From the NCBI GenBank assembly GCA_037379345.1, contig CM074517.1, positions 13,702,001 through 13,766,000 of the forward strand: a stretch of DNA of 64,000 bases, read 5' to 3'. This DNA is from Perna viridis. Lineage: Eukaryota. This document shows positions 42,385 through 62,671 of this stretch, one piece after another (the first letter of the stretch is position 1; each line of letters opens with the position of its first letter). The position numbers and the translations under genes are program-made. Under the pieces are notes generated by a model. It saw only the letters and a list, made by a program, of their open reading frames with translations. It was not told the DNA's origin and ran no database searches.

Positions 42385-45045
42385 TTATTGTGCTACTACA
42401 TAATTTTTGTGTAATTCTGGCTGGATGTCAACAACAAAGTCTATTAAGTTTTTAATGGCTACTTCTTTGTTCCTTCGTACATTATCTTCAACTTCTTTTA
42501 ATTTTCTCTTCGTCTCAATATCAATTTGAGACTCCATGTCACTTCTAGATCCTAAGATCTGTAACAGAAATTTAGATTCTATTACAATATTTTACATTTT
42601 ATAAATATACTCATGCATCTAATGTTACAAAAGGAATATAAATATCAATCTACATAACTAATTATACTAATACAACATGTACAGCAGGAAAATATGTCTC
42701 ATATTTTGTGCATCTTATATTACATTTTTATACTAATATACTTGCAAATGTATATTATAATGTAACTTAAAATATATGTAATTTACAATCGTTGATTAAT
42801 ATAACACCAATTATTGTTGAATTTTAAGGATTAACCTTTTAATGATATGCACAGCATCCAATACTGTGCATATCATTAAAATACACCTGTCTTGTGGGAT
42901 ATTCCAATTTATTCATACAGTGTACTGTTTTTTAAAATATCTTGTACTACTTCATTTAAGAATTGAATGTTTCATCTTTTTCACTTCATTGGTATTTTAA
43001 AGTATTGACCATAGCACATTTTCAATGAAGCATGTTATTTATATTTGAAAATGAGAAACTAGTCAGTGCTTTTACAAGCCAATGAAATATCAAATATGAA
43101 ACATTCAATTCTAATACTTACATGTACATTTGACATGTTCCTCTTATTTGTATTGCATCTGTATCAAAGTGTTCATGATGGCAAATACTGTTTCATTTAT
43201 TTTAATTTTATTTTTAGAAATGCAAACGCAATTATCAACAAGCTTTGGGTGTTGCCCATATAAATAGCTTGAAAGGTGTTTCATTGAGTATTCAAACATC
43301 ATTTTTATCAATAGTTTAATGAGCAGCACTTTAATACTCACTTACTTACACCATTTATTCATTATGAGCTCTGATCATCAATCATTTCTATGCAAGATGA
43401 GACTTACAGATTTTTCATATTTTTTGTACTGGTCCTCTCTCTGTTTTCTGTAACCATCTATTTCTGCTTGAGCTTCTTCTTTTGCCTGCTTCAGTCTCTT
43501 AGCTTTCCCTGCAAATAACAAATAATGCATCAAATTGATATCAGAGGAAGGAAATTCAGCAAGTCTGATGCAAAGGACTACAAAATTGACATTATGGACT
43601 GAAGATAAAAATATACACTCCCTGAAACTAGACATTTACATTCATTGTACAACCTCCCAAATATAGAAGTCTTGAAGAAAAAACTTTTTAATTGCAGAGC
43701 AATACTACCAGTAAGCATACTTATTAACTTTCTGTATCCAATAGCTATTTATTGTAATATATAAATGCAAATTCATTTTGTTTATACATACAATTGTATT
43801 AGCAAAGATAACATTAATAACAGTAATCTGCTTAAATAAATTTACTACTGCTTTGATATTGTTTCAAATTTCTTTACATACATGTAAGTTGCATTCTTTT
43901 TAGATGGATTCATATGCTAAGTTTGTCATCTTCCCTTTGCAAACCCTAGCTGGATCACTAAGACAATTCCTTTGTATATATGGAACAACCAGTAATTTGT
44001 TTAAAAACAATTGCAAATCAGTCCATGTTAATGTTCATGAACAGTGAAGTACGATAGACACTACTGTACGTAAGTACTACCAAAAATATCTCCCTTTGCT
44101 TTCTATGCAAAATTGATCCATTAAAAAAAAATTGGGCATTATTGGAACATTAGATAACCCTTGCCATGTAATTGTCAAAAAGGGGGATGGAATAATGTTC
44201 AAAATGGCCTTACTTGAAAACTTCATATTGGAATATGAGGAGTTATTATTTTTCATGACCAGTTTTGAAATTTACCAATGATTTAAACTGAAAAAACAGA
44301 ACAGAACAGAATGGAGCAGAAACGATTTTTAAAACCGGAATCTAACAGAATATTTCAAAATTCCGCTGAAAAATTATGTCCGCTACCCTTCTGTTCCAAA
44401 AGTAACAAGCTCCACCTACTCTCTATTACGGTTCAAAATGTCAACAAAACAGGGTCTCTCGTGGAAAATGATCAAAACTTCAAGAAATAATGTAATTTTT
44501 GTAGCAAATTTGATATCAGCATACAGGAAAATGATTCCAGAATCGAACTAGATAGGTGTGACATGCACAATTTCAACTTGAACGTCGTTACAGGCGGTTG
44601 AAGGGCGGTACTCTGTGGTACCACTAAATCTCCAACTTTTTGTATGGCACATCGTTCTGATCCCAACCCGACGTATCAATAATATCCAAATAAAAAAGAG
44701 GAGGGTTGCAGGGTCAGAGGAAATTCGGACAACCTGTAAACATTTAAGAGAATAAATTTTACAAACACAGCAAGTGTATGAGTGAACTAGGAAGTCTGAC
44801 ATGAGGAGCTCGAAATATTTGGTAGATTCATCTTTTACACGGGTGAATATAACTAAGAAACTGTGAACTGTCAACTTTGAACATTTTTCACTTTTCAGAA
44901 GGAAGATCAACCCAAGAAACTTTTACCATGGGTCACAAACCTTACAGTCAGTTGTAACCTTACTTTTTCTAGCATCCGACACCTTTTCAGCTGCCATCTT
45001 TTCAGCTTTTAAGAGCTGTTGTATTCCAGTAGATTGACTAGCCAT
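42385..45045 (-). CDS. ATP6V1G: V-type proton ATPase subunit G (118 aa)
   Basis: Exons 45045-44964 (MASQSTGIQQLLKAEKMAAEKVSDARK), 43508-43408 (RKAKRLKQAKEEAQAEIDGYRKQRE..), 42558-42385 (ILGSRSDMESQI..DIQPELHKNYVVAQ*); 82+101+174 nt, canonical GT-AG. Confidence 0.97.
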
Positions 45046-45689
45046 GATCGCCGTAATCTTATGACAGGAAGTGGTGAGTCAAAGTGATTTGCAGAATGGA
45101 TTCAGTACATTTTCTAAATTAAAAGTTAATCCCGGATAAAATAATTCCGGTTTTTGTTTTTGTCTTGTGTACTCTAGGTGTCCTAGTCCTATATTGCTTG
45201 AGAAGTTTTTCTTCAGGAAGATCTTGTTATCAATTTAATAGATAAAACATCCTATGAAAAATCCAATGATAGAAATCCTTTTCAGGTCCAAATTTCAAAT
45301 GTTATGTATTTTGCTTTGGACGTGACATAAAAATCAGATTAGAAAATAAAAAAAATTCCATCATCCTGAGTCTGCTCAGGACTTACGACGTATAGGAGGC
45401 TGGAATTCCGTTTCTCCACATCCGAACGATGGCACCAAATTAGAAAAAGCTCGCCAGACAACCTCTATAGCTTTGTTGGAGTTCTCAGACTTGACCAGTG
45501 GCTACTTATAGCGATAATTACACTGATCCAGCGAAATGCAAGGATACCACTGTAATGTCGTATTGGGAACTAAACGCATTGTTTTGGCTATCAAATCTTA
45601 TCTTTAACTTGCCTGGTTATAATCAATATGTATTGGCCTAGGCCAATTTGACATATCGGACTAGTTGGTCATTAAAGGTATGGTATCAT

Positions 45690-47119
45690 TTATTTATTGA
45701 TATCAGTAACTTATTTATTGATTGAATAAATGAATTATTGATATTAAGGATTAATTATTGATATTAATGATTAAATATTGATATCAATAAATCGTATTTA
45801 TTGCTATCAATAAATATGACATGTTTATTCACACATTAATAAATAAATATTGATATCAATAACTGTTTTATCAACATGTTTATAAATATTTACAAACATG
45901 TTGACAATTCGTTAATATGACTTCTCCATATCGTCAAACAGTATATGTCGGTACAACCCGCCTTTAGCACCTGCGCACTGTCTTTTCTTTCGCTGTCGAT
46001 TCGAGACAAAACATTCATTTATTTGCTTTTGTTACTTTGTATGTATGATTTTAGTTACATTATGTTCTTCGTTGTGTATGTCTGCTTTCCATGTCTGGTC
46101 TTTGTCCCTGGATTGCATTCTTTTGATTACCGCTAGAACCTTGGTTCCCTTGATTACTCTTTAAAAACGTTAACGTGATGATTTGACGGCTGAGAGGTTA
46201 TCTAATTGAAATCAATTATATTAGTCAAGGAGTTAAATATAGATCCTTGTATAAATACACACATTTAACACATACGGTGACATATTATATACAAATTTAA
46301 TCCAACTTCCAACGGGGTTGGTTAAACGGAACAGCCGTTATTTTGGCTACGCCTAGGGAAATTTTTCACAAAAATTACCGCATTTGTCATATTACAAAAG
46401 AAATAATTTCTAACGGGGGTAGCTTTGTACTCATTTTAACATGGGTATGGCATTTATATTCGATTATTTAACACCGAGCGACAGCGAGGTGTTTAATGAG
46501 AATATAAATGACCAAACCCATGTTAAAAGGAGTATAAATCAACCCCCGGAAAAAATTATTTCTTAAATAGATGGCAAGTCGTTGTGAGTTTATAACCTAT
46601 TTATTAATATCAATAAATCATTAATTGATATCAACAACTAAATTATTGATGTTAAGGATTAATTATTGATATCTATAATTGGTATTTATTGATATAAATA
46701 AATATAACACATTATTCACATGTTAATGAATAAATGTTGATATCAATAAATGATTTATCATCACTTTGATAAATATTTATCAACTTGTTACTAATTCATC
46801 CATGTATTGATATCAATAAATCATTTATGCACTTGTTGATAACTATTTATAATCATGTTATCAAATGTTTATTGATATCAATATACTATAGATTGCATTG
46901 CACCAGGGCACTGCAGGGGCTTGCTCCATTCCTACTAACAAATATGCAGTCCCACTAGTGTTATAGCTAGGTTATATAGCAGTAGGGCTGCATATTTGGC
47001 AGTGGGAGCAAGCCCATGTGCACCGTGCACCAGGGACACTGATAAATAAATACGAACCGTATTACGATTATTCATGATTCAGTGCACCAAGGACTTTAAT
47101 ATATATATTTAACTCCTTG
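45690..47119. mobile_element. Nested cluster of non-autonomous elements between the divergent V-ATPase G and Ro60-like genes
   Basis: tattgatatcaataa-rich repeats (45690-45910, 46595-46885); PLE 3' fragment 46016-46160; TIR pair caaggagttaaatata (46226) / tatatttaactccttg (47119); fold-backs at 46398-46564 and 46915-47015. Confidence 0.7.
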
Positions 47120-47349
47120 AGCATATTTTGTAAATTGATAGTGCTGTGACTTTTTATTATAAACATCTAGGCCTACGTTGCATGTCTGGGTAGTGTAAAT
47201 GGTTATCCTTTATGTTGTTCTGTACAGCGAAGTATTTCCTTTTTTCTCTTTTTTTTTTTTGTACATAGTAATGAAAGACTACTCAGTTCTATTCGACCTT
47301 TCACTCTTTTTGAAAGTAGCCAAAACCCGATCTTCTTCTGCAAAATGTT

Positions 47350-47480
47350 TCACCCAATAAAATAACAACACAAAAATTGATGACGTAGTTCACGTCAATA
47401 AAGGGTTTGTCTGGCCTGACTGTGGAGATCCTCACATTCTTGGAATATTTTACTTGCTCCTGCTGCTGCATCTGAGGTTA
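47350..47480 (+). promoter_or_regulatory. Candidate promoter / non-coding first exon of the Ro60-like gene
   Basis: CCAAT at 47354; inverted CRE half-sites TGACGT..ACGTCA at 47381-47397. The ATG at 49761 directly follows an acceptor, implying an upstream non-coding exon. Confidence 0.3.
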
Positions 47481-48321
47481 TTATTGCAATAAGTACTTGT
47501 TCGACTTCTAAGCATGATAACACACGTCGCTATATGTCTATTAAATAAATTGCATGTTTAAATTAGGTGAAAATGAATATTATATGAAGCAGGTATTGAA
47601 ATGCAGGGTCTAGATTGCTGGAAACTTTATAGCTATTTGTATTTATTCATATGTGTTAGGCAGAAGAGATGGAAATCTGTGTAGGCTTAAATCTGTTACT
47701 CAATTACAACGACATATCTGGATCTGATTGGGATGTTTACAACATTTGCATCACGAAGATAATGTATGCTATTGCCAAAATTTATTATTCCCGTATTTCA
47801 AATTTCAGCATTAACGTTTTCTTACACCATCTGTTCTCTTTTGGTCTTTTTTTAGATGACACATAAATGACAAAAACACATGTAAATAACGATTTTTATG
47901 CATTTGCTACATATATATTTAAATGTATTCAAATTTTTAAACTAAATCACTAATTATTTTTTATTTACTATTATGTCTAATAATTCTGGTAATTATGTTA
48001 TGTTTTTTTGCAGGGGTAAAAATTAGGAAATACAAGCTGGTAGCCTAGACCATATTTTTGCTTATAATTTTCTATATGTTCAATTAAATTTTACCCAAAA
48101 GTTCGGTAGCCAATCTAATTCTAAATGCCATGGGCTACTGATTGACTGATAATTTTTATTCCTGTTTTGTAAATAAAAGTGTGTGACATTGAGTGTTCAC
48201 CCAGGAATCGTATTTTTAATGTACATGTGCCTGAAAATTAAGATTAAGAAATTTACAATGTAGCCTAAAAGTGAAGTACTGTGTACGTTTCAGATCAGTT
48301 TGACATCACATACATTTGTAA

Positions 48322-48437
48322 AGTCTGAATTTCCTCTGACCCTGCAATCCTCCTCTTTTTTATTTGGATATTGATATGTCGGGTTCAGTATCCAATTAAA
48401 AAAGAGGAGGGTTGCAGGATCAGAGGAAATTCGCACT
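48322..48437. mobile_element. Fold-back MITE with a 9-bp flanking duplication; one-armed copy at about 44663-44730
   Basis: gaatttcctctgaccctgcaatcctcctctttttt / aaaaaagaggagggttgcaggatcagaggaaattc; acatttgta on both sides. Confidence 0.8.
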
Positions 48438-49760
48438 AACATTTGTACATTGCAAATTTATTCACTATTTTATTTGTCCATAGCATGTGCTCTAGTCTAT
48501 AGTTTTGCTTTTACACAAATTCTTTGAAAATGAAAACCAGAAGAAATAATATTTTTTGACATTGTTCTTACACTATTATTATGCAAGATAATGCACAATT
48601 AAAGTAAGTTACCATTATTTAGTTTAAATCATGAAATTAATTAAGTTAAATATTTTTGAAAAATGGAAGCCTGAAACTTGTACATGTACATGTATCTACT
48701 TGTACCATTTTCTGTACAGTACATGGTCTTGCACAGTGCTTATACACATATTGAAGATGTACACCTAGTTCCTATTATGGAGAAATTTTATTTTTTTTTT
48801 TAACATGATTTTTAGCATGTTGAAATAAGCCATTTTTTCGACAGTATATGCTGTCGTAAGTACATTACTTAAGGAAATTTGTAAGTGTGCACCACACTGT
48901 AGTTTTTTAACTTTCTTAGTGTTTATATACACATTTACATGTAAGATACTTATACATGTGTGTATATGCTGACAAATAAATGACTGTGTCACAGGTCCAG
49001 ACAAGTACTGTAAATGTGTAATTTTCCCTATATTCAGAATCCGAGAAAGTAGCAACCCATCAATGTGTGCCTTTAAGAGTGGGAGTGGTAGAAAGGTGGG
49101 GGAGGGGGGCTATAAACACATCTCTTTTAGTTCTGTAATTATTCAATAAGTTGCCAATACATAACTAATATGTTTACAGTGTGCGTTTTGCTATTGAATT
49201 ACATTGTCACTTGTTGTTAGTTGTTACTATCTCTTTCCTTTGCTGTTTGTTGTCCTTCGCCTTTTGAGTTACTGGTTTATCTACACACTATTTGTGCATG
49301 TAGGGTTTAATTTTGGATATCACTTTTACTGTGGTTATTTGAATAAAAATTTAATTTTATTTTGCTAATACAGGCTTCACATTGTCAACAGATTTTGACT
49401 TACCTATTTTCCCCCTAAAAATTTCATAGAAAACAACTTCAAAAACATCTTATTAACCACCTGAACTTTGTGGAAACTGAAAATTGACTACCATCTGTAA
49501 AATATTGGGTCATTTGGTGGTACTTTATGTTGTTTGTTAACCTAAAAATAAGTCAGTGGGATGGTCAAGGTATGAGTTGGTTGGGTAACAGGAAACAGAG
49601 GTATAATTTTATTTGGCCTTACTGTCTAGCATTAACTGAAGTTGTATTTTTAGTTTTTCACAACACTTATGATGGAGGGTCATATCTCCAATACAATTTA
49701 ACTTACATCTGTCATGTTTGTATGGGAAAAAATGGAACTTTCTAATTATTTTATAAATAG

Positions 49761-52700
49761 ATGGCTTCAGCAGATGAAGATAAAGATTTAAAAAGGTGTC
49801 AAAGATTACTGAATTACTACACAGAGGGCAGTGTCTATAAAGTTATAGGCAGGTGTTACAGCAAAGAAAACACAGAATGCTTAGTTCATATGTTAGAGGA
49901 AAAACGAGGCAAAGAGATCCTAGCAGAAGTTGAGAAATACAGCGAAAACTGCTCAGACCAACAGAAAGACATGCTTTTGTTCACTGTTGCTCTGTGTATG
50001 AAGGACAAAGACAGTGAACTGAAGCAGCATGCCAACAAAACATTTCTCTTGCTGTGTAAGACTGCAAGGGAACTTTTCACATTTTTAGAATTTCACAAAA
50101 AATTGTCTGCAAGGGACACTGCTTCTAGAGGATATGGGCGTTCATTGAAACGTACATTGAATGAATGGTACAACAGACAAGATCCAATGGACTTGGCCAT
50201 CATGACAATGAGGGATAACAGTGTCAATGGATGGTCACATGCTGATGTTCTTAAAATGGCACATATCAAAGGCAAATCTGAAGGTAAATATTTAACTTTT
50301 ATTTACTGAACATTGTAGTTTGGTTCAAAGTTTTTCTGAAATAATGCACTAATCGTACTTTTAGTCTATGATGCATTTACTAATATTAAGGTAGGTCATA
50401 CCTAATATTTGTAGTAGAGAAATTTTCCTAGTTTTTCTGGAAGATGACCTTGAATGAACTTAAGAATTTTAATGTAAAAATCATAGGTCACTGAAATTTA
50501 TTTAGAGATATTAGAGCCTTAATATAGACAATTTTTATTTGGATTCTGTGTCCCCCAACTCTTTTCCTTGTAATTTAAAAAAAAATACATTTCTATAGAA
50601 CATTTTCCTGTCAATTATCTCCCCTTAAAATAACTTTATACAATTCATGTTTGTAATTTTACCAAACAATTTTTTAGGTGAAAAATGCTTCACAAATAAT
50701 TTAAACATTATTAATTTATTGAAATTACATGTATATATATTTTTTATGATTTTGTAAGATGACAGAAAGTAATTAAGAAATAATTCCTGAATGCCGGACT
50801 TTATGTTTATTTAACATAGGGAAAGCACTATAATTGTCTATTTTTCACGGAGCATTATCGAGTTATAAAATCTTGACAAATGTAGTTAAGATAGGCATAA
50901 AGCTCATCATCCAGGAATTTTTTCTTTTCTAACGTGACAAAAAGTAATTTTTGTCGGTGAGGCACTCCATAAGAAAATGAAATATTTGGTCTTTCCAATT
51001 TTCTCTCCGTATCATTTTTTACAATAAAGTACAATTATTTTAACTGTTACAATAATAATATTTTAAATACATGCATGTGATTATAATAAGAAGTAACATT
51101 TATAATTATAAAACGGAAATTGAATCACATTTACCAATAAAATAACTAACAAAATCATGTCATGACAGCACATCATGTGACATAGATATAGGTAATTCGA
51201 TCAAGGTGGAAATCCCACTCTATGTTGCTATGTTAGTCTAACAAAATATCAACAAATCAAGATCCTCTGAAACACATTTCATTCTTTGTGAATAACATTT
51301 CAATTTTGATTTGCTAGTGGAACCATGTCCTTCAATGCTTGGTCGAAATCAGTCTGGCCAAAACAGTAATTTTACATGCATCATACAGCCAACATGTTGA
51401 CATTTCTGTGTGTTCTTATGTAGTATGTTAAGATTGTAATAGCATAGAGGCGTTTCTTGAGAAGTATCATTGACTTTGTTGCTTTCACAATTAGTAAATA
51501 AATAATTACAATTGATGAATACAATGAAAAGCAGTGATGAAAAGTTACATGTACCTCGTCATTACAATGATTGAGCAAGTGCAAGCATGGTTTTATGCTA
51601 CTTAGAGATCTCCATCTTTAACAAAGCAAACATGTCATGCCATGTTAGAATGCTCAGTGTAATAGGCATGATCTACCTCAAGAACAAAATTTAACAATAA
51701 ATTCTATTATTTTAATATTTACCCTCTCTAACAGAGTAATGCCAAAATTCAATATGACCTTGAAATAACTGAAATGAAATGTCATTAAAATAATGACTCC
51801 AGTCCTTAAAAAATAGTTATCAAGGGGATGAATCGATGGCCTGTTTTAAAATTTTTAATCTACATCACAGGACAGACTAAGAGTTTGTTTTTTCAAATAT
51901 ATATAAATGATTTAACAAGATATTATTGTGATCCAGCTAGTGTTATTATCAACTGAAATGTACTAAAACTTTTTATAGAATCAGTACTTTATACTAGACT
52001 GAACCATGAACACTGCGAATTTTAACTGAAACTCATAGCCAAATTGAAAATGCAGAGATATATACAGTGTATATACTAATTTAATGATATCTAGCGTTAA
52101 CATACATGTACATTTTACATTTAAGATTAGTCTTTGTATACAATTCAGGGGCGGATTAAGGCAGGGCATGGCGGGTAAGCACCCCCCTAAAATTTGCAAA
52201 GCATGGGTTGTCAGGGCTAGATTCAGGTGGTTTTAGGTTGATTTGTTTGTTTGTTTGTTGGGGTTTAACGTCCGAGCAGCAATATTTCAGCTATATTCAG
52301 ACAATGAAAATGAAATTGATGATAAAATGAACATGAAATGATGATGAAATGAAAAAGGGATGGGACAAAAGGACAATGGGGTCGACAAATTTTGATTGCC
52401 ACTGGAAATAGGGAGAGATGGGTAGGGTCGGGCAATTTAGCCTCCTGTGGCAGAGCCCTATGCTTCCTACTCCGGGAGAATACCACAGTAGGGTTCTTTA
52501 ATGTGCGAGGAACATGGCATCTTTCCCAACACGGTGCACCACTATGGTTTGCGGTCATGTTTTCCGTATTATAGCCTGACAACTCCAGCATGTAACACAC
52601 CAGGGGTACCCCATTCCACCACCTGGGCACACATCCCAGTTGCTCTGTGGGCAGAGTGCCCTAGCCCCCAGCTAAGGTTCTGAGCACTATTTAGTCGCCT

Positions 52701-55700
52701 TTTACGACAAGCTTAGCGCTGCTGCAGGCCTATTCTTTTAACACCTGGACCTGCATGGGGCGGTTTTAGGTTGAAACTTTAATTTCTCGCTAATTTTACC
52801 ACAAAATATATCTACATTGCATCCACTCTTGAAGAATATTTCCAAAATTTAATCTAAAAAAATTTAACTGAGTCCCCCCCATCCCCCCCTCCTAATCTAA
52901 AATCCTGGATCCACCCCTGTATAATGTGTTCCATTGTGTGGAGGTTCCTGGCTGAGTTTGAAGCAATGGTCTGATTGATTCATTCTTGTTGATTCACACA
53001 TACTAATCTCAGATAAAGTCTTCTATAGGTTTTAATCTTTAAAACATAAATAAGTGTATGCTAAAAGATTGATTAGTCTATAATTTGCTTAAAAATGAAA
53101 GCCATTAATGTAAATAATTTTTATTGATTTGATTAACAGCTGCAGTTGATAACATTGCAAGAAGGATATTTAACTAATGCTATAATGATATTCAGATACT
53201 TTGCTTAAATGAAGTTAAATGAGTTATTTCTTAAGTTTTAAGATATTGAAAGAGTTTTAAAGGGGGCCAAAAAGGTTCTTATGTTTTGAGGAACTTTTAA
53301 TGTTTCCTTCTTTCATGATTAATGCAATATTCTGAGATGCATTTTATAACAGAGGAATTTCACTTCAAATGAATTAACTGGAAATCTGCCAAAACCATAA
53401 CAATTACCGGAAATATTCTGTTTGTCTAGTTTCACTACATGTACAACAACTGCCATTTAGACTGTGCCATTCTTAGTAATACATGTACCTGTAGTTACGT
53501 TGTTATGTTGAATTTTGTTTTTGCTCCAATGTGTCTTGTAGTGATTGATGCCAAATTATTTTAAATGATGACATGCACCAAGATACATGAAATATATTAC
53601 ATAACAATCTTGGATAATCATACATGTTCATGTAGAACATGTTACCTTCAATTTTAAACATAAGTAGATAGCAATTACTGTGAATGCTTTTCAAGGCAGA
53701 GCAAAATCATGGTCACATAATGCAAGGGGTCTTTAATAAATACAGATTAATTTTACAATAGCATGCACTACATAGGGATATAAAAGCCACAATCTTGTAA
53801 GACAGGTTACTGTTGAATACATGTGGTCACTAAGACAGGTTGACTCTATTTAAAGGAAGCTTATAACCTTATATGTATTTATAATTAGTTTTACTACCAA
53901 TGTCCTGCAAAATAAATCAGTGATCATTTATAAAAAAATAAGTAGCTCTCAGAATGATTGGAATATAATTGTTTTTATATTATAGACATTTTTTTTTTTA
54001 AATTCCACATGTTATTAAGTTTGACCAAGGCATTTTCTGTTTTTATTTTTAAAATCTGAACAGGAATAATTAGAAGGAATTTCTTGTGACATGTTTTAGA
54101 AAGCATGTATAATCAAGTAACTGTAACTACCTAGTCTTTACTAAATACCCTTTACAAGTAAGTAAGGATGGAAGATAAGTTTCTATTTATCTATCTGTCC
54201 ATCTCATTGTCTGTCAGATATAATTTTGCTTAAATGAAGTTAAATGGGTTATTTCCAAGTTTTAAGATATTGAAAGATCACTATGGGAATGTGCATATTG
54301 GCAAGTATATAAGGTATTGGGAATTTTCTTTCAATATGTTTTATAAATGATATCAGTACAGACATGGGTACCACACACGCTGCAGTCGAGGGGAGGGGAA
54401 TCAATCCTGTTACGGCATGTTCTTGTTTTATTTGAAAGATTCCCATAAAAGTGAATAATAAAAGAAATGTGTTATTTCTGTTTGCTTATCCATAAGGCCT
54501 GAACTAAAGATTTTTATTTGAATCTTTTGTGGTACTGTACATGTATATGTATTTATTTTTCGCAGTTGTTAACTTTTGCTTGATTTTGTCAAATAAACAT
54601 TTTTGCGGGTATGAATTTTCACTGTTTAAAAAAAATGATTAGCATTGTTCATTGTATTGTGTTAAAAAATAATTTCATTGAATAGTGTTATTCATTATAC
54701 AGAGTTAAAAATCAATTTCGTGGGTTTCATGTTTTTTTGACATTGCAAAATTAATACCTCATAAAAATTAATAGGTTTACACTAGATAATTACATGTACA
54801 TGTACAACATGTTCATCAAGTGGACATGTAATTTCATTTCATAGGACAATTAGAGGTGTATTGACTCAGTCCCTTTATGTGAACTTCAATTGTAATTATC
54901 TTTCCAGGATCATCATTGATATTCAAGTACCTTATTAAAGGTAGAAAAGGAAGAGATGAGGTTTTGAAGCAAGATAACCAACCAGAAAATGTGCAAAAAG
55001 TTTTAGACTACCTCAAAATGGTACACCAAATCCATCACTGTACCGATGAACATACAGTAGCCAGACTTATTGAGCAGCATAACCTTGGCACGCAACATGT
55101 GCCTACAGGTCTATTGACTTCCAAAGAGGTAAAGTAAAAATATCTTATGTTTTAAGACAATTTTAGTGTTTGTTTTCAAAATCTTATCACACAAGGCAAT
55201 AGACGACTTTCACATTCAACATTTATGTCGAATCCGGTGGAATCTGGTTCATGGTTTCATTCCAGACAAAGAAAGGGTGTTGGATTTGAAGGCTACGAGA
55301 ACAGTATTAGTTATGTGTAAATACGTTTCCCACCAATATAATACATGTACCATTTAAAAACTCCTGGCCGTAACCAATCAAGTTTCTGTTCCCTTGGCTT
55401 CCATTGCAATGTCTCCTGATCTTGCACCAGCTGACCCCAGTTGACCTTTATATAATTGAGGGTCACGCTGGGCTTCACCAATGTCACAATTTGTGATTTT
55501 TTATTTGATCATGGCCATGTGCATGTGTCTACATACAGGTTTCACAGCCCTTTTAAACTACAGATACATTCTGAAACAGATTAACCTTATAACAGAGTAA
55601 ATTAAATCCAACTAAGAATGGTTATCCCATCAGGAAGTGTCTAAAACACTTTGAAATGCAAGAATTGATAAAAGAAAATGGATGACATTTGTTTTGCCAT

Positions 55701-58700
55701 GTGGCTTTTTTTGGCAGGAAAATCAGTAAACAAATAGAATGGGGATTTCCAAAATCTAATAAATGAAATAATGAAGGCATTAAGTAATAATGAATCAGAT
55801 ATCAAGCAGGAGTACAAGAGATAATTAAAAAGGAACACAGTTTATTGTCCATTGTAGTTTGCTAGAAATGTTATCACTTGAAAAAAGAATCAAGTTTGTT
55901 GAAAATTTATAGATAAAAAATCATTAGAATTTTAGACAAATTTAATTAAGACCACAAAGGACAAAGGTAAACATGGTTTAAAATCAGGGACTATATGAGC
56001 ATAGTAATAGAAAGTCCTTGATAGTAATTAAACACCTTTTTTCTGGAGTAGTACTTTATTATTTTGCATATAAAAAGTGACTAATGGTTTTAGATCCTAA
56101 GATTAGAGCTAAATACCAGCTTTACACATTGAAACTTCAGATTTCCAATGAAAAGTTGTACAATTTTGTTAAAGTTTTAGAGACAGAACTTTTTAAAAGG
56201 ATGATCAACAAAAAGAAATAACACTTATTTTTTGTAGACTTCATACTACATGTAATACATCTTTAATAATCTTTTACATCGTTTAGATTAATGAAAAGCA
56301 AAATCAACTGAATGTTAGTTTACAGAAATTTCAAAAAATTTGCATAGAAATGATATACTTTCAAGAATGACATAAAATATGATACTGGATGACATAATTA
56401 ATTGAATATATGCTAATTTCCAATGAATTGATCATCAGTTTTTGAATTGATCAGTAGGATCCTATTCAATATAAAAACCATTTAATCCTAACATCACTAT
56501 AAGTTGAATATTAATTGTACTCTATATACAAGTTACTTTTTTGTATAAAGTCTTAAATAATATTATCTAAAAATTATTTCACAAACATGGATCATACAAT
56601 TCAACATTTCAAAAACATAATTGTTAGGTTGACCGAGACCACAAACATCAGTTTGTTAACAGTGTTTGAAAATGTACATCACAAAGGTAATGTTTTACAT
56701 GAACTGGTACTTTACTTTGAGACATTAAATGAATGTTGAAGTAAGGATCTCTCATGTTGAGTTATCGCTTCTTTTAATTACAGGTGTGGGGATCACTGAT
56801 AGGTGAGATGACTGTAGGAGAGGTCCTACAAAACTTCAACAAACTTGCCAAGATAGGGTTCCTGGAATCTGCCTATGAAAACAGTAACAAGGTTGTGGAG
56901 ATGTTGCGCAATGAAGAGATGCTTCAGAAATCAAAGTAATCGTTATATATATTTTAGGATGTAGTTTGTTGATTTCATAATTAGATCTAATGCATTTTAG
57001 TAGTAAATAACATTAGAAATAAGGTAGCCAGTTATCTTTGGAGAATAGGTTATAAAGTGTTTTCTGGTTATCCAGGTTTTTCAAAGGAGATATGAGGCGA
57101 ATTTCACTGCTTCACTTCAATGAAATCACCTGTTAAAATTTCAATTTTGTAAGAAAAATTTTTAAAACATAAAAAAAATAATAAAAATCTGATAAATACA
57201 TGACCAATATTTCGTGCAACACATAGGCTGCGTCTGTTCTAAAATATGAAGAAACTAGTCATATTAGAATTGTAATAAATCATGGAAACTATATTTTATT
57301 ATTGTTTTACCACAGCTGGCTTTTTCTTAATTTGACAGTAAACTTAGAGTTATTTATAAATGTCAAAATATATACAAATATACAAATGAATTACATTCTC
57401 TCTATTTTTTTTCAGAGTACAACCAATCGATGTTTTGATTGCCAAGAATGTGTATGAAAATGGCAAGGGTGGCAAAGTCACCTGGGCAATAAATGAAGCT
57501 GTTGTTGATGCTCTCAACTTTGCCCTGGAATTCACTATTAAGGTTTGTTATTTAGCATGTTTTTGTAGCTTATATTCCTACTTGTAACATATATTCTATG
57601 GGAATTTCTTTATGTAAAATTAGTGGGAGACCTTTCAACAATTTAGTTTTTTATAAAAAATGCAGTTTAGTTGTGATCTTAGGAAAACTTCTATACGCTT
57701 ACGCTTGCATGTTTTGCATGCTGTTTATGAATATAATTCTTTGGAAAATATGCATTGTATATTCAACATTATTTTTCAATAGAAATGATAGCTTTATATC
57801 AAATATTTTCCCATTTGTAATGCCATTGGTCACAACTTATAATAACAATGTTCATTTATCTTCCTGTAACTACCAATTTAATATCAGATTTATGTATAAA
57901 AGAAAACTATAGAACTACTGATATCTAGTTGCATTCTTAATAAACTATCAAGATGTAAATTTTGTATTCATATTTATAACTGAGTGTCATTTTAAACTTC
58001 AGAATACTAAGTCAACTAATAAGCGTTACCTTATTGGGGTTAGAGTTGGGGCCAACACAAAGAAATCCACAGTGCGAGGCTGTAAGACACTGTCCACAGT
58101 ATTTGCCTCTGCTTCTATTGCCATGGTTACAGCCAGGAAAGAGGACAAAGTTCAGTTTGTTTATTTCACAGACAAAGCCACTCAACTGTCCTTGAACTCA
58201 GAATCTTCCCTCAATGAAATTGTTGAAGACATTTCTAAACAAATTGTAGTTTCGTCATCGACACCCACCGCAGGAGATGGGGTAAGAGTTTTATTTTAAT
58301 CATATTTCTGATAGTACCCAAGAAATAATTCTTTTATTCTAAGGAAAAAGTTTACGTATCTTATATTTAAAATGGGACGCTTAATGACCTTGATTACTGT
58401 GGAAGAACCATTGTTTGTTAGGTACAAATCGGGCTAGTAAGTGTCGTCACATGACACTATGAATTTACAAGAATGTGTCCCGAACTCCTATTCAAAAACA
58501 TTGGTATTGTGTGTGTGTATATATAATAAAAACTACAATGTTATCAACAAAAAACTCTTATATATAAATATAATGGTACAAATATGACCCTTGTTTATAC
58601 AGTAAAAACTAAAATGTTATCAACAAAAACCTCTTTTATGTAAATATAATGATACAAATATGACCATTTAACTATTTCTACACTTCAGTTATTAATGGTA

Positions 58701-61700
58701 ATAAAACACAACTAGAAATTATTGAGATGGAATCCATATCTGTTGGCACCGCCTTGGTAATTAAGTCATATATACATGAAATGGATTTACGTGATCTGAA
58801 ACTTTGTCTACTATACATGACAAATATGTTGTAATAACAGCAGACAAAGCCCAACACAACATTGTTTTTTTTCTGCAAAACGTTTTACATCAAATGTTTA
58901 TTATCAGAGGTAGACATAGAAAATAATAGCAGTGATAAGACCTATACTGCTACCACACTCTCCAAAGAAGATATTGTGGAAAACCAGAAATCTGTGCTAT
59001 CCTCTTTTGGTCTCTCTACCAAGGAAGATGATTGTGATTTACCATCTATGTACTGGATTCCTAAACTTCACAAGAATCCATACAAACAACATTTCATGGC
59101 TGGATCTGCAAAATGTACCACCAAACCTCTTTCAAAACTTTTAACTTCTATACTCACAACTGTCAAAGAGGGTCTACAGTCCTACTATAATACTTGTTAC
59201 TCCTGTAGTGGTATTAATTCAATGTGGATCCTGAAAAATTCGAAAGATCTTTTGGAGACAATCAGTTCAAGACTATTATCTGAATATAATAGCATTAAAA
59301 CCTATGATTTTTCAACACTGTATACTTCTATTCCCCATACTCAGTTAAAATCTCGACTTAAAATCATTATACATTGTTGTTTTACCAAAAAATATGGTAC
59401 ACCTAGATACAAATATATAGTTCTTGGTAGAGATTCCTCATATTTTGTAAGAAATAATTCCAAATCATCTTCCAAATATACAGAGGAAGATGTTTACAAA
59501 ATGCTGAAATTTTTAATTGACAACATATTTATCCAGTGTGGTGGACGTGTTTTTCAGCAAACGGTTGGCATTCCAATGAGAACAAATTGTGCTCCTTTAC
59601 TTGCTGACCTTTTCCTTCTCTCTTATGAGGCTGACTTTATAGCTAATCTGATCCGAAAGAAAGAATATCGTTCAGCTAGATCCTTTAATCTCAGTTTCTG
59701 ATATATAGATGACGTATTATGTTAAAACAATCCTAATTTCGAGGATTTGATACATCGCATCTACCCCAAAGAACTTCAGATAAAGGATACTACAGGCACT
59801 GTGAAGTCGGCCTCATATCTTGACCTACACTTAGAAATCGATGGTAAAGGAAAACTATTGACCAAACTTTATGACAAACGTGATGACTTTTCATTCAAAA
59901 TTGTCAACTTTCCTTTCATCTGTGGCAACATCCCTTCAGCACCTGCGTATGGAGTTTTCATATCACAACTCATACGTTATGACAGAGCTTGCTGAAACTA
60001 CACAGACTTCTTGTATCGCGCTAAAACTCTAACAAATAGGCTTCTTGAACAGGGTTATCTTGCTACAAGATTGAAGTCGTCACTATAGAAGTTTTATGGT
60101 CATCATGAACTCGTGGATTGTTATGGTGTATCTACATGTATCTGCACCATGAAAACTGATTTATTCAATGGGTCATAGATTTCCTTTCCTCGTTTGTCTA
60201 CCCCGGACTTGACTTTTTATGAGCAACTCGGCGGGTGTTTCTAGAAAAACAGAGGACGCTTACCCTACTGATGCACCTGGTTCATGCTCCCAGTTTTTAG
60301 TGGAGTCCGAGTTGCTCATTTGCTTTTGTTACTTTGTATGTATGATTTTAGTTACTTCATGTTCTTTGTGTGTGTCCGTTTTCCTTGTCTGGTCTTTGTC
60401 CCTGGATTACATTCTTTTGATTACCGCTATAACCTTGGTTCAGTTGATTACTCTATCTACCCACATGCCAAATGTCAAAAGCCCACATGGAAAGACAAAA
60501 AAATTACAGCCTGGAAAAGAGTTCGTCAATGGAAAAATAGGAGTTTTACCTTGAGGTAAAAGATCATAGACAAGGTCATAGGCTTCTATCCATGGTACAC
60601 TACACATCATCTTTACATGATCTACATACATGCCAAATATAAAAAGATCACATCTAAAAACAAAAAAAAATTACAGCCCAGACAAGAATTTTTCTCTGAA
60701 AAATATGGAATTTGACCTTGACATCAAAGTTCAAGGTCATAGTCTAGTATCCATGGAATGTGACATGTTTTTAGGTGATCTATCCACATGAAAAGTATCA
60801 GAAGTCCACATTAAAAGATAAAAAAAATCACAACCAAGACACAAGTGTGTCACTGAAAAAAAAACATGAATTTGACCTTGAGGTGAAAGTTCAAGGTCAT
60901 AGGCCACATGCCACATAATCTTAAGGTGATTTACCTACTGGAACATGTTGAATATCAAAAGGCTACATGGAAAGACTAAAAAGTTATAGCCTGGACATGA
61001 GTGTGTAATGGATGGACAGACATTATAGGGCAACCACTGCTTTTTCTGGTGGGGCCCTAATTAAAAATTCTTACAACTAACCATTATATTGATGTGCTTT
61101 GAAGTAGCAAACTTATACAAGCCAGTCTTGGCGTTTTATGTGTACGATCGGTACTATTTCCGGATAAGAAATTAGTCAAAAACAAAACAAGCCCAATAGT
61201 CATGGTGTTTTTGTCAAATTTTGAATTAAAATTCTTGATGAAATGTTAAACTATGAAAACATTGATTCATTGATGAAAAAAACTGGTGGACATTTGATTA
61301 ACCATGAAAAAAGTCCCTTCTTAAGTATTAATTTCAGTACCAAGTACCATGGTACTTTTGAAAATCACAACATAATTGAATGACTATGGCCAAGTAAAAG
61401 AAAGTTTGGTTCTCAGTTCCTCCCTTGTCTCTTTAAATGCCTTTGAGGGTTCCTCATTTCCTACCTCTTGAAATATAAACAAAAGCACCTTTATATCAAA
61501 GTTTTATTGGCCATGAAAAGGGTCAAAGTAATGTCTGTCTCTTCCTCCTTTATTAATTTTTATGAAAAACGAACCACAAAATTAACTATGAATTTCCTAT
61601 ATTATTAGTTCTTGTTTGCAATTATTAGATTTGTATAATTGTAGATGTCTGATTTTAATATTTTTTTTCAAAGGATATGCCAAAAGTCCCATGTGACCTG

Positions 61701-62671
61701 ACAGCCCCAATCAGATGGGCCACTGAAAACAGGAAGCAGATTGATGTATTTATCACAATTACAGATGCTTATCATAGAACTGGGGAAATAACTCCTCCTA
61801 AAGCACTCATGCAGTACAGAAAAGAAATGAACATGCCAAAAGCCAAGTAAGATTGAGAACTATGTTTTAGGGGGAAAATATAACAACAAATTAGGCATAA
61901 TCTAAAGAAAATGTGGATAACAATATGCATAGTAAAACATTTCAAAAAGAAACGAGAGGGTCTGTTAAAATGTCATTTTTATTGACTTTCACTCTATTGT
62001 TGACCCAGAAATTATTCCTTTTATTATTTAGGGAGTATGACATGATATAATTAGACTTTTTCATAAGATCCACTGTGTAAAGTATTTGGTTTTACTGGAT
62101 CATGGTGTATAAATTGGTGTTGCACTAAAATATGAATTTGGTTCCTAGAAACTTTTATGCAATGAACAAATAAACAAAATACCTCTCTTTTGGCACAGAC
62201 ATTGATAACCATATATATCTGTTGAAATGTAGAAATGTAAATTCAGAATTTTATTAAATTTTTTTGTCATTATGAAGTTGAAGTTGCAACTGACTTCAAA
62301 TAGTAATAATTATTTAAACTTACATTGTGGAACTTGTAACATATCTAATAAGCTTTTTTTTTTCGATTGCAAAAACTAAAATCTTATAAATTAACTTACA
62401 TGACAAAAATGTAATAATTCATGCAAGCAATGATTTCTTTATTATAATATTTATTTGTACATCAAAAGATGTATAACTAAAGATAATATAAAGAGATCCT
62501 GCAGTCATCATGTGAAAAAAAAAATCTTCATTTTACAGGCTGGTGACGTGCGGATTGTGCAATGCTAATATGAAATCAGCTGACCCAAGTGATCCTGGAA
62601 TGATAGACATTGCTGGTTTTGACAGCACTGTCCCTTCAGTTATCAGTAAATTCATCCTCCATGACTTTTGA
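49761..62671 (+). CDS. RO60: Divergent Ro60 / TROVE2-like RNA-binding protein (TROVE + vWA), 535 aa
   Basis: Exons 49761-50283, 54908-55128, 56784-56935, 57416-57542, 58003-58281, 61674-61846, 62539-62671; 1608 nt in frame. Motifs GYGRSLKR..WYN, NGWSHADVLKMAH, LIEQH, DVFITITD, ADPSDPGMIDIAGFD. Confidence 0.93.
52146..52919. mobile_element. MITE (CAGGGGCGGAT..ATCCACCCCTG termini) split by a SINE insertion
   Basis: Terminal inverted repeats at 52146 and 52909-52919. Confidence 0.65.
52242..52761 (-). mobile_element. SINE-like retroposon with a 13-bp TSD
   Basis: TSD ggttttaggttga at 52229-52241 and 52762-52774; (aaac)n tail; head with RTE-like cttgtcgtaaaaggcgactaaa. Confidence 0.85.
58527..58666. 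repeat. About 77-bp tandem duplication x2
   Basis: taaaaacta.aatgttatcaacaaaaa.ctctt.tat.taaatataatg.tacaaatatgacc occurs twice. Confidence 0.8.
58780..60454 (+). mobile_element. 5'-truncated, decayed Penelope-like retroelement (RT) in Ro60-like intron 5
   Basis: RT motifs YWIPKLHK, ILKNS, YDFSTLYTSIPH, GIPMRTNCAPLLADLFL, F*YIDD, LYDKRDDF, YGVFISQLIRY; in-frame stops and a frameshift after YIDDVL. Confidence 0.92.
60455..61062. mobile_element. HINE-like element with about three diverged ttgaccttga..caaggtcat units
   Basis: Units near 60545, 60712 and 60872; tggatggacagac; terminal tagggc..gcccta. Confidence 0.6.

What the first reader, a model, noticed from the sequence alone, without database searches (positions are those of the whole stretch)
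49761..62671. Intact but MIDAS-dead, cavity-remodelled Ro60 paralogue
Seen in sequence: a full 535-aa frame with clean splice sites. Compared with canonical Ro60 (recalled human sequence), the MIDAS DxSxS (LAVDVSASM) reads LIGVRVGANT, the MIDAS Thr (GGTD) reads VPCD, and TDNET reads TDAYH. The N-terminal NSxxGYVW segment is missing. TKYKQRNGWSH reads MRDNSVNGWSH (R174->V), LVREH reads LGTQH (R255->T) and LLRNLGKM reads VLQNFNKL (R283->Q). The outer-surface Y-RNA-binding region GRSLKR and H187 (KMAH) are retained. There is also a Ser/Thr/Pro-rich insertion (VVSSSTPTAGDGDMPK) in the vWA domain. Inference: this Ro60 may still bind a Y-like or stem-bulge RNA but no longer threads ssRNA tails or binds a MIDAS cation. 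It could be a neofunctionalised or decoy ring with an unknown RNA partner.
Basis: partly seen in the sequence, partly recalled or inferred. Interest (0 to 1): 0.72.

Follow-up and report, generated by a model that had tools for sequence, protein, structure and literature searches.

The report
Ancient metal-site-less Ro60 of molluscs
This mussel gene is an intact, spliced, strongly conserved member of a mollusc-wide branch of the ring-shaped RNA-binding protein Ro60 that has lost its metal-binding motif and several channel arginines while normal copies sit on another chromosome; it likely grips folded RNA on its outer surface only, and it may be the closer relative of the human protein.

Summary
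In detail: 7 GT-AG exons give 535 aa, one public contig joins all seven, and pN/pS is 0.20 against a related genome. MIDAS residues D376/S378/S380/T445 (human numbering) read R/G/N/C, but the fifth ligand D469 is kept. R174, R255 and R283 are lost; R146, D181 and H187 are kept. The genome has seven more Ro60 genes on contig C8, three with a full MIDAS. The gene is not a recent or local oddity. It belongs to a clade (100/99-100) spanning bivalves, gastropods and cephalopods; none of nine members has a MIDAS and eight carry Lys/Arg at the first Asp. Chelicerate and myriapod relatives put Arg two positions later. A mollusc-internal origin from the canonical copies is rejected (AU p=0.007, 0.024). 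Best trees place the clade nearer vertebrate RO60 than the C8 copies, but the alternatives are not rejected (p=0.11, 0.17). Best mechanism (inferred, 0.42): a metal-independent ring whose basic side chain fills the cation site, and which binds structured RNA on its outer face without threading tails. I found no description in ten searches. New variant of a known kind.

The parts
49761..50283 (+). Coding exon 1 (aa 1-174): HEAT/TROVE helices; short N-terminus; retained R127, K130, H160, D162, H168 (human R146, R149, H179, D181, H187); V155 for R174 at 50223-50225
   Evidence: spliced contig
54908..55128 (+). Coding exon 2 (221 nt); T236 for human R255 at 55090-55092
56784..56935 (+). Coding exon 3; Q264 for human R283 at 56829-56831
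57416..57542 (+). Coding exon 4, end of the HEAT ring
58003..58281 (+). Coding exon 5: vWA strand 1 with the degenerate MIDAS (R355 at 58042-58044, G357, N359) and the start of the loop insertion (58246-58281)
   Evidence: Pfam PF25045 41.7 bits
61674..61846 (+). Coding exon 6: end of the insertion, C441 for MIDAS T445 (61692-61694), retained D465 for MIDAS D469 (61764-61766)
   Evidence: Pfam PF25045 54 bits
62539..62671 (+). Coding exon 7 with stop codon
   Evidence: Pfam PF25045 44.6 bits
62672..63112 (+). 3' untranslated region, at least this far
   Evidence: contig X1 record 1 runs to 63112
58838..60190 (+). Degraded reverse-transcriptase-like repeat in intron 5; a passenger, not part of the mRNA
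   Evidence: broken frames; high multi-copy read depth and skipped by the spliced contig; no Pfam hit, so the RT label is my reading of motifs and the right end is approximate

Best explanation
The gene encodes an expressed, conserved Ro60 of an ancient mollusc-wide subfamily that has lost four of five MIDAS metal ligands and three cavity arginines, and it likely works as a metal-independent ring that holds a structured RNA stem on its outer surface without threading single-stranded tails. SHOWN: intact spliced gene; purifying selection; Ro60 fold in a model of a 75%-identical orthologue; the residue pattern; a clade spanning bivalves, gastropods and cephalopods; three MIDAS-intact copies in the same genome. 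INFERRED: (a) the Arg/Lys that replaces the first MIDAS Asp reaches into the empty cation site and pairs with the retained D469 (and D446), fixing the vWA domain without Mg2+; (b) the helices bearing R146/R149 and H179/D181/R184/H187 still bind a Y-like or other stem-bulge RNA; (c) labour is divided, with the canonical C8 proteins doing misfolded-RNA threading and this protein stabilising or tethering its RNA; (d) the split between the two lineages predates molluscs, and this lineage is more probably the one that includes vertebrate RO60.
For: Splicing: one 2050-nt contig carries all 7 exons in order with 2 differing letters in the coding pieces. Raw RNA reads on exon bins are low but skewed to one mate orientation, e.g. 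0.02 vs 1.86 and 0.22 vs 2.24. Selection: pN 0.16, pS 0.79 (saturated), pN/pS 0.20, bootstrap 0.16-0.26, over 294 codons of exons 1-3 against L021. Fold: orthologue P0002 pLDDT 93, pTM 0.90; best structural match human Ro60 9NEN, TM 0.83-0.87, Z 37.4, 495 residues. Residue table, 9 mollusc clade members: D376 kept 0/9 and basic 8/9; T445 0/9; D469 9/9; R174 0/9; R255 0/9; R283 1/9; H187 9/9; positions 146 and 149 basic 9/9; D181 8/9; R184 7/9. Three arthropods keep D376 and D469 but have Arg at 378 (3/3), an independent basic residue beside the same site. H187S abolishes Y RNA binding in mouse Ro60 (PMC11277228, passage). Trees: mollusc clade 100/100 and 100/99. Union with mollusc canonical copies rejected, AU p=0.007 and 0.024. 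Haliotis, Sinanodonta, Mytilus and Lingula each have both types. The window protein is 34.5-35.2% identical to tarpon and amphioxus RO60 but 24-30% to its own C8 paralogues.
Against: No binding, metal or RNA data exist. Net charge of the HEAT region is only +4 (+4 and +5 in the two closest orthologues) against +14 to +16 in the canonical C8 copies, which argues for weak RNA binding overall. R184 is Ser in P0002 and D181 is Asn in Mytilus. Conversely, K170, K287 and in some orthologues K255/R283 remain basic, so threading may not be lost. No Rfam Y RNA match in the genome (only 51 of 115989 candidates scored, vertebrate-built model). The grouping with vertebrates is unstarred (83/92, 81/95), joins long branches, and the rivals are not rejected (p=0.11; p=0.17). 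The roles of R174, R255 and R283 in the cavity are recalled from Stein 2005 and Fuchs 2006, which I could not open.
Confidence: 0.42

Rival explanations
1. A diverged but functionally ordinary Ro60: it still binds Y-like RNA and threads tails, using substitute basic residues, and the MIDAS is simply dispensable.
For: K170 and K287 basic in 8 of 9; K at 255 in 3 of 9; R283 kept in P0002. The MIDAS is also eroded in tarpon RO60 (S380P, D469N), amphioxus (S378G) and 4 of 7 C8 genes. Its role in Ro60 is stated to be unclear (PMC12135203, passage).
Against: R174 and R283 are Arg in 119 of 120, and R255 in 114 of 120, canonical-type hits, yet 0/9, 1/9 and 0/9 here. The fixed Asp-to-basic change suggests a selected state, not drift.
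Confidence: 0.22
2. The protein has left RNA binding largely behind and serves as a HEAT/vWA protein scaffold.
For: HEAT net charge +4; R108, W144, Y171 and K172 also changed; N-terminal segment lost; variable loop inserted next to the MIDAS Thr position.
Against: H187 9/9, basic 146/149 9/9, H179 8/9 and D181 8/9 across the mollusc clade. Other clade members have HEAT charge +7 to +18. These residues may also be structural.
Confidence: 0.2
3. Immune decoy or sensor: it sequesters viral or retroelement RNA, or baits antagonists of canonical Ro60.
For: The family is expanded to 8 genes here, with a 4-gene tandem cluster. Human Ro60 binds Alu/L1 transcripts (PMC11277228, passage).
Against: The expansion concerns the C8 lineage. 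This gene is single-copy, largely follows the species tree and is under purifying selection, unlike an arms-race decoy.
Confidence: 0.1
4. A decaying duplicate or pseudogene.
For: Low read depth on exons (about 1-3x in a fifth of two RNA runs); repeats in introns.
Against: Open 535-aa frame, spliced contig, pN/pS 0.20, orthologues across three mollusc classes.
Confidence: 0.02

Closest known systems
Vertebrate RO60 (TROVE2/SSA2; PDB 9NEN, 1YVP, 2I91)
   Same: HEAT ring plus vWA fold (TM 0.83-0.87 to 9NEN for the orthologue model); 34% identity; H187, R146, D181 and D469 kept. Best trees group it with tarpon, lamprey and amphioxus RO60. From recall only, human RO60 has introns at the same places as window introns 1, 2 and 4, and a 221-nt exon.
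   Different: MIDAS D376R, S378G, S380N, T445C; R174V, R255T, R283Q; about 20 N-terminal residues missing; about 10-residue loop insertion before the T445 position; much lower positive charge; no Y RNA identified.
Canonical spiralian Ro60 (C8 two-exon genes L001-L003; Mytilus P0216, Haliotis P0226, Lingula P0313)
   Same: Same family and genome; same predicted fold.
   Different: These keep all five MIDAS ligands, the cavity arginines and the N-terminal segment. They have one phase-2 intron at a site the window gene lacks, are about 30% identical to it, and form a separate tree lineage.
Ecdysozoan Ro60-like proteins (Limulus, Nymphon, Chamberlinius, Priapulus)
   Same: Short N-terminus, lost R255 and R283, kept H187 and D469; sister to the mollusc clade at 93/82. 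Priapulus isoforms differ starting exactly at the window's intron-1 position.
   Different: They keep D376. The three arthropods have Arg at the S378 position instead of a basic residue at 376.
Bacterial Rsr and phage phiRo60 (2NVO, 9KOP/9L5Y)
   Same: Ring fold; RNA duplex bound on outer helices (PMC12135203, part 3 read).
   Different: They have a Ca2+-binding MIDAS and adjacent Y RNA genes; 16-25% identity.

Membership tests
Ro60/TROVE family | TROVE (PF05731) plus vWA_Ro60 (PF25045) domains | tested here: met
   Window exons 5-7 over the PF25045 cut-off. Full-length orthologues P0001, P0002, P0019 and P0021 are over both cut-offs. Single window exons did not hit PF05731.
Ro60/TROVE family | Ring of HEAT repeats closed by a vWA domain | tested here: met
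   Model of the orthologue P0002 (75% identical, not the window protein itself): 9NEN Z 37.4, rmsd 3.0, 495 aligned.
Canonical Ro60 (MIDAS-intact, threading) | MIDAS DxSxS...T...D | tested here: not met
   R, G, N, C, D in the window; 0 of 9 clade members intact; 120 of 120 canonical-type hits intact.
Canonical Ro60 (MIDAS-intact, threading) | Basic cavity residues K170, R174, R255, R283 (roles recalled) | tested here: not met
   R151, V155, T236, Q264: one of four basic.
Canonical Ro60 (MIDAS-intact, threading) | Outer-surface Y RNA residues (H187; D181, R184, R146 by recall) | tested here: met
   H168, D162, K165, R127. H187 role from PMC11277228 passage.
Canonical Ro60 (MIDAS-intact, threading) | Bound Y RNA or Y-like RNA | tested here: inconclusive
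   No RF00019 match in G000 (51 candidates scored) and no Rfam hit in the window. The models are poor for molluscs.
Canonical Ro60 (MIDAS-intact, threading) | Tail-dependent binding of misfolded RNA; cation binding | not testable with these tools
   Needs biochemistry.
Orthogroup of vertebrate RO60 | Groups with vertebrate RO60 to the exclusion of the C8-type copies | tested here: inconclusive
   Favoured in three trees (0.947; 83/92; 81/95). Rivals not rejected, p=0.11 and 0.17.
Orthogroup of vertebrate RO60 | Shared intron positions and synteny with chordate RO60 | not testable with these tools
   No chordate genome available. Only isoform breakpoints in Octopus (introns 1, 6) and Priapulus (intron 1) were seen; human positions are recalled.
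TEP1-type TROVE | TEP1-like TROVE segment without a vWA_Ro60 domain | tested here: not met
   The window gene has vWA_Ro60. A separate TROVE locus at G000:C3:6.68-6.69 Mb has no vWA_Ro60 hit and looks TEP1-like by recalled motifs.

The most novel reading that the evidence does not exclude
Animals inherited two Ro60 lineages from before the protostome-deuterostome split. The one that gave human RO60 survives in molluscs and arthropods as a metal-free ring in which an Arg or Lys was installed independently, at two different motif positions, in place of the MIDAS cation. It serves an undiscovered class of small RNA, while a second, two-exon lineage that looks canonical does the quality-control job.
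Probability: 0.3. Interest if true: 0.72.

Novelty: new variant of a known kind. Interest (0 to 1): 0.5.

Why it matters
The function of the Ro60 MIDAS is stated to be unknown (PMC12135203). This genome offers a natural pair: MIDAS-intact and MIDAS-less Ro60 side by side, the latter kept in bivalves, gastropods and cephalopods with a fixed Asp-to-basic swap. Comparing their RNAs and metal dependence would test directly what the MIDAS and the cavity arginines do. It is also a handle for finding the unknown Y-like RNAs of molluscs. If the orthology holds, best-hit annotation picks the wrong gene as the invertebrate counterpart of human RO60.

Tried and rejected
(1) Open-ring idea. The orthologue model fits apo human Ro60 and Rsr (rmsd 3.4-3.5) better than RNA-bound forms (5.4-6.0), and I considered that loss of the N-terminus leaves the ring open. 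The control, a canonical Mytilus protein folded on nearly the same alignment, gave the same preference (rmsd 1.9 and 2.9 vs 5.2-5.5), so the models say nothing on this. (2) The C3 TROVE locus as the canonical intron-rich Ro60: rejected; at best a weak match to Ro60 queries (E 0.03) and no vWA_Ro60 hit. (3) A missing N-terminal coding exon upstream: no motif or similarity in 45050-49760. The upstream exon remains unlocated. One Mytilus annotation has a 23-residue extension without the motif. (4) Y RNA: no RF00019 match in G000, no Rfam hit in the window; weak tests. (5) The run search listed no holder on record as RNA; only laid runs were used. (6) dS is saturated, so only pN/pS, an upper bound on omega, is given, and for exons 1-3 only. 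(7) Ten paper searches (listings only) showed no paper on mollusc Ro60 paralogues or MIDAS-less Ro60. Four look-ups for three papers (Stein 2005 and two reviews) found nothing held, most subscription papers are outside the library, and no supplements were read, so prior description cannot be excluded. (8) Earlier scan findings: none by words or sequence for this gene; the eight listed for 'Ro60' concern prokaryotes and phages. (9) complex prediction was not used: no protein partner is claimed.
Full report
1. The gene. Seven exons at 49761-62671 (+) have canonical AG/GT ends and give 535 aa with no internal stop. Exons 5-7 pass Pfam vWA_Ro60, and exon 1 matches human and Xenopus Ro60. The host is a mytilid mussel by inference from 73-80% identity to Mytilus proteins. 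A 2050-nt contig from run X1 carries all seven exons in order and continues to 63112; a contig from X3 joins exons 1 and 2. Those runs are only guessed to be RNA, but an intron-free join of seven exons is a spliced transcript. In two raw RNA runs (about 19% of each read) exon bins have depth of about 1-3, mostly in one mate orientation, so expression is real but low. The exon-1 bin is inflated by a nearby repeat. Against the orthologous locus L021 (same three first introns), 294 aligned codons give pN 0.16, pS 0.79 and pN/pS 0.20 (0.16-0.26); synonymous sites are saturated, so omega is lower still.

2. The residues. Human numbering was read from chain 9nen_A and carried over with an alignment anchored on tarpon RO60. 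All listed substitutions are right. The MIDAS is defined as DxSxS...T...D (PMC11277228, passage). Here it reads R355, G357, N359, C441, D465: four ligands lost, the last Asp kept. R174, R255 and R283 read V, T, Q; K170 is Arg and K287 is Lys. R146, D181 and H187 are kept, R149 and R184 are Lys. That R174, R255 and R283 line the cavity is recalled from Stein 2005 and Fuchs 2006, which were not available. H187 as a Y RNA determinant is from PMC11277228 (passage). The insertion at 423-438 spans intron 5, varies from absent (Octopus) to about 20 residues (Pecten), and is a lower-confidence coil in the orthologue model (pLDDT 68-75). It is a variable loop, not a conserved Ser/Thr/Pro module.

3. 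The rest of the genome. A PF25045 search found seven more Ro60 frames, all on contig C8, four of them in tandem at 21.90-21.93 Mb. Six were completed as two-exon genes with one phase-2 intron; the first exon of the seventh was not found in the stretch fetched. Three (L001-L003) keep all five MIDAS ligands and R174/R255/R283. Four have degenerate MIDAS motifs of other kinds, keep R174 and R283, and have very basic rings (+22 to +26). The window gene is single-copy. A TROVE locus on C3 is not Ro60.

4. Relatives. A profile search of 1.84 billion representatives, with 30 of the 150 best hits and earlier hits looked up by name, found the same type in Pecten, Argopecten, Sinanodonta, Lottia, Haliotis, Octopus and Argonauta; Babylonia came. 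In nine members tabulated: D376 is kept in 0, is Lys/Arg in 8; T445 in 0 (Cys in 7); D469 in 9; H187 in 9; positions 146 and 149 are basic in 9; R174 in 0; R255 in 0 (Lys in 3); R283 in 1; the N-terminus is 6-9 residues in 9. Limulus, Nymphon and Chamberlinius keep D376 and D469 but have Arg at 378 and Val at 445 (3 of 3). Tarpon RO60 has S380P and D469N. By contrast the 120 best of 691 hits to a canonical bivalve query all have the full MIDAS; this set is biased by its selection. Haliotis, Sinanodonta, Mytilus and Lingula carry both types.

5. Trees. FastTree on 159 rows (near-duplicates and rows under 450 or over 650 aa left out; output partly cut), then IQ-TREE LG+C20 on 46 and 45 rows that I chose. 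The second set left out five of the seven C8 genes and the bacterial rows, and its bootstrap had not fully settled. Vertebrates are represented by tarpon and lamprey only. The mollusc degenerate clade is 100/100 and 100/99 and largely follows the species tree. The C8 genes fall in a separate bivalve or mollusc clade (100/98; 99/94). Forcing the two together is rejected (AU p=0.007; p=0.024). The degenerate clade joins the ecdysozoan proteins (93/82) and lies in a group with the vertebrate and amphioxus rows (83/92) or with all deuterostome rows (81/95), none starred. Vertebrates with the C8 type (p=0.11) and a single protostome clade (p=0.17) are not rejected. All groups were named after the first tree was seen, and long branches are involved. 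Supporting hints: higher identity to tarpon and amphioxus (34.5, 35.2%) than to any C8 paralogue (24-30%); isoform breakpoints at the window's intron 1 in Priapulus and Octopus and at intron 6 in Octopus; and, from recall only, human introns at the positions of window introns 1, 2 and 4. So a split older than molluscs is well supported; orthology to human RO60 is probable (about 0.6) but not established.

6. Structure. The window protein itself could not be folded as one chain; the 75%-identical orthologue P0002 was used (pLDDT 93). It matches human Ro60 over its whole length. Compared with the canonical control model, it lacks the short helix and hairpin after vWA strand 1, so the MIDAS loop is predicted to be reshaped. 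Both models prefer the open, apo-like ring, so ring opening is uninformative. A crude proxy, HEAT-region net charge, is +4 here, +7 to +18 in non-mytilid clade members and +14 to +16 in canonical C8 copies.

7. Mechanism. Shown: an old, conserved, expressed Ro60 ring without a metal motif. Inferred: a basic side chain fixed at or beside the cation site while the partner Asp is retained is most simply a built-in counter-charge that locks the vWA domain; arthropods reached a similar state by another substitution. Retained outer-surface residues and lost cavity arginines point to binding of an RNA stem without threading, with canonical copies covering quality control. I put this at 0.42, an ordinary Ro60 with a dispensable MIDAS at 0.22, a protein scaffold at 0.2, a decoy at 0.1 and a pseudogene at 0.02.

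8. Known and new. It is a member of the Ro60 family but fails the MIDAS and cavity tests for canonical Ro60. Databases label the orthologues only 'RO60-like'. Papers seen: PMC12135203 (passages and part 3 of 6 of the text; says the MIDAS role is unclear), PMC11277228 (passages), PMC4726728 (passages; list Y-like RNAs in nematodes, insects and amphioxus, and none of the passages shown mentions molluscs). Ten searches, read as listings, showed no account of two animal Ro60 lineages or of a MIDAS-less mollusc form; the library lacks most subscription papers and I read no supplements. Verdict: real, new variant of a known kind, interest 0.5.

Noticed in passing
G000:C8:21,903,000-21,927,400 (L002, L006, L007, L003), C8:28.18 Mb (L001), C8:40.93 Mb (L004), C8:15.67 Mb (L005): Seven further Ro60 genes, nearly intronless (six shown to have two exons). 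Four have independently degenerate MIDAS motifs but very basic rings (+22 to +26) and keep R174 and R283; one has a Mytilus californianus orthologue (P0116). A second, separate case of MIDAS loss in the same genome.
   Followed up: partly
P0067, P0038, P0061 (Limulus, Nymphon, Chamberlinius): Arthropod Ro60-like proteins have DxR at the MIDAS and Val for the Thr, a parallel basic substitution.
   Followed up: partly
P0024 (tarpon RO60): A teleost RO60 with S380P and D469N: the MIDAS may be eroded in some vertebrates too.
   Followed up: no
window 42405-45045, - strand: V-ATPase subunit G gene (Pfam PF03179), head to head with the Ro60 gene, 4.7 kb from its ATG; the Ro60 5' exon may lie near this promoter.
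   Followed up: partly
window about 4000-30150, - strand: Dynamin gene, many exons (Pfam Dynamin_N).
   Followed up: no
window 58838-60190, + strand: Degraded reverse-transcriptase-like repeat in intron 5, with abundant related reads from other copies; no Pfam or PDB match.
   Followed up: partly
G000:C3:6,683,380-6,690,417, - strand: Intron-rich TROVE gene without vWA_Ro60, TEP1-like by recalled motifs.
   Followed up: partly
window 19660-20307 and 21975-22508, - strand: Open frames of 216 and 178 aa inside the dynamin region with no significant Pfam match; probably transposon remnants.
   Followed up: partly
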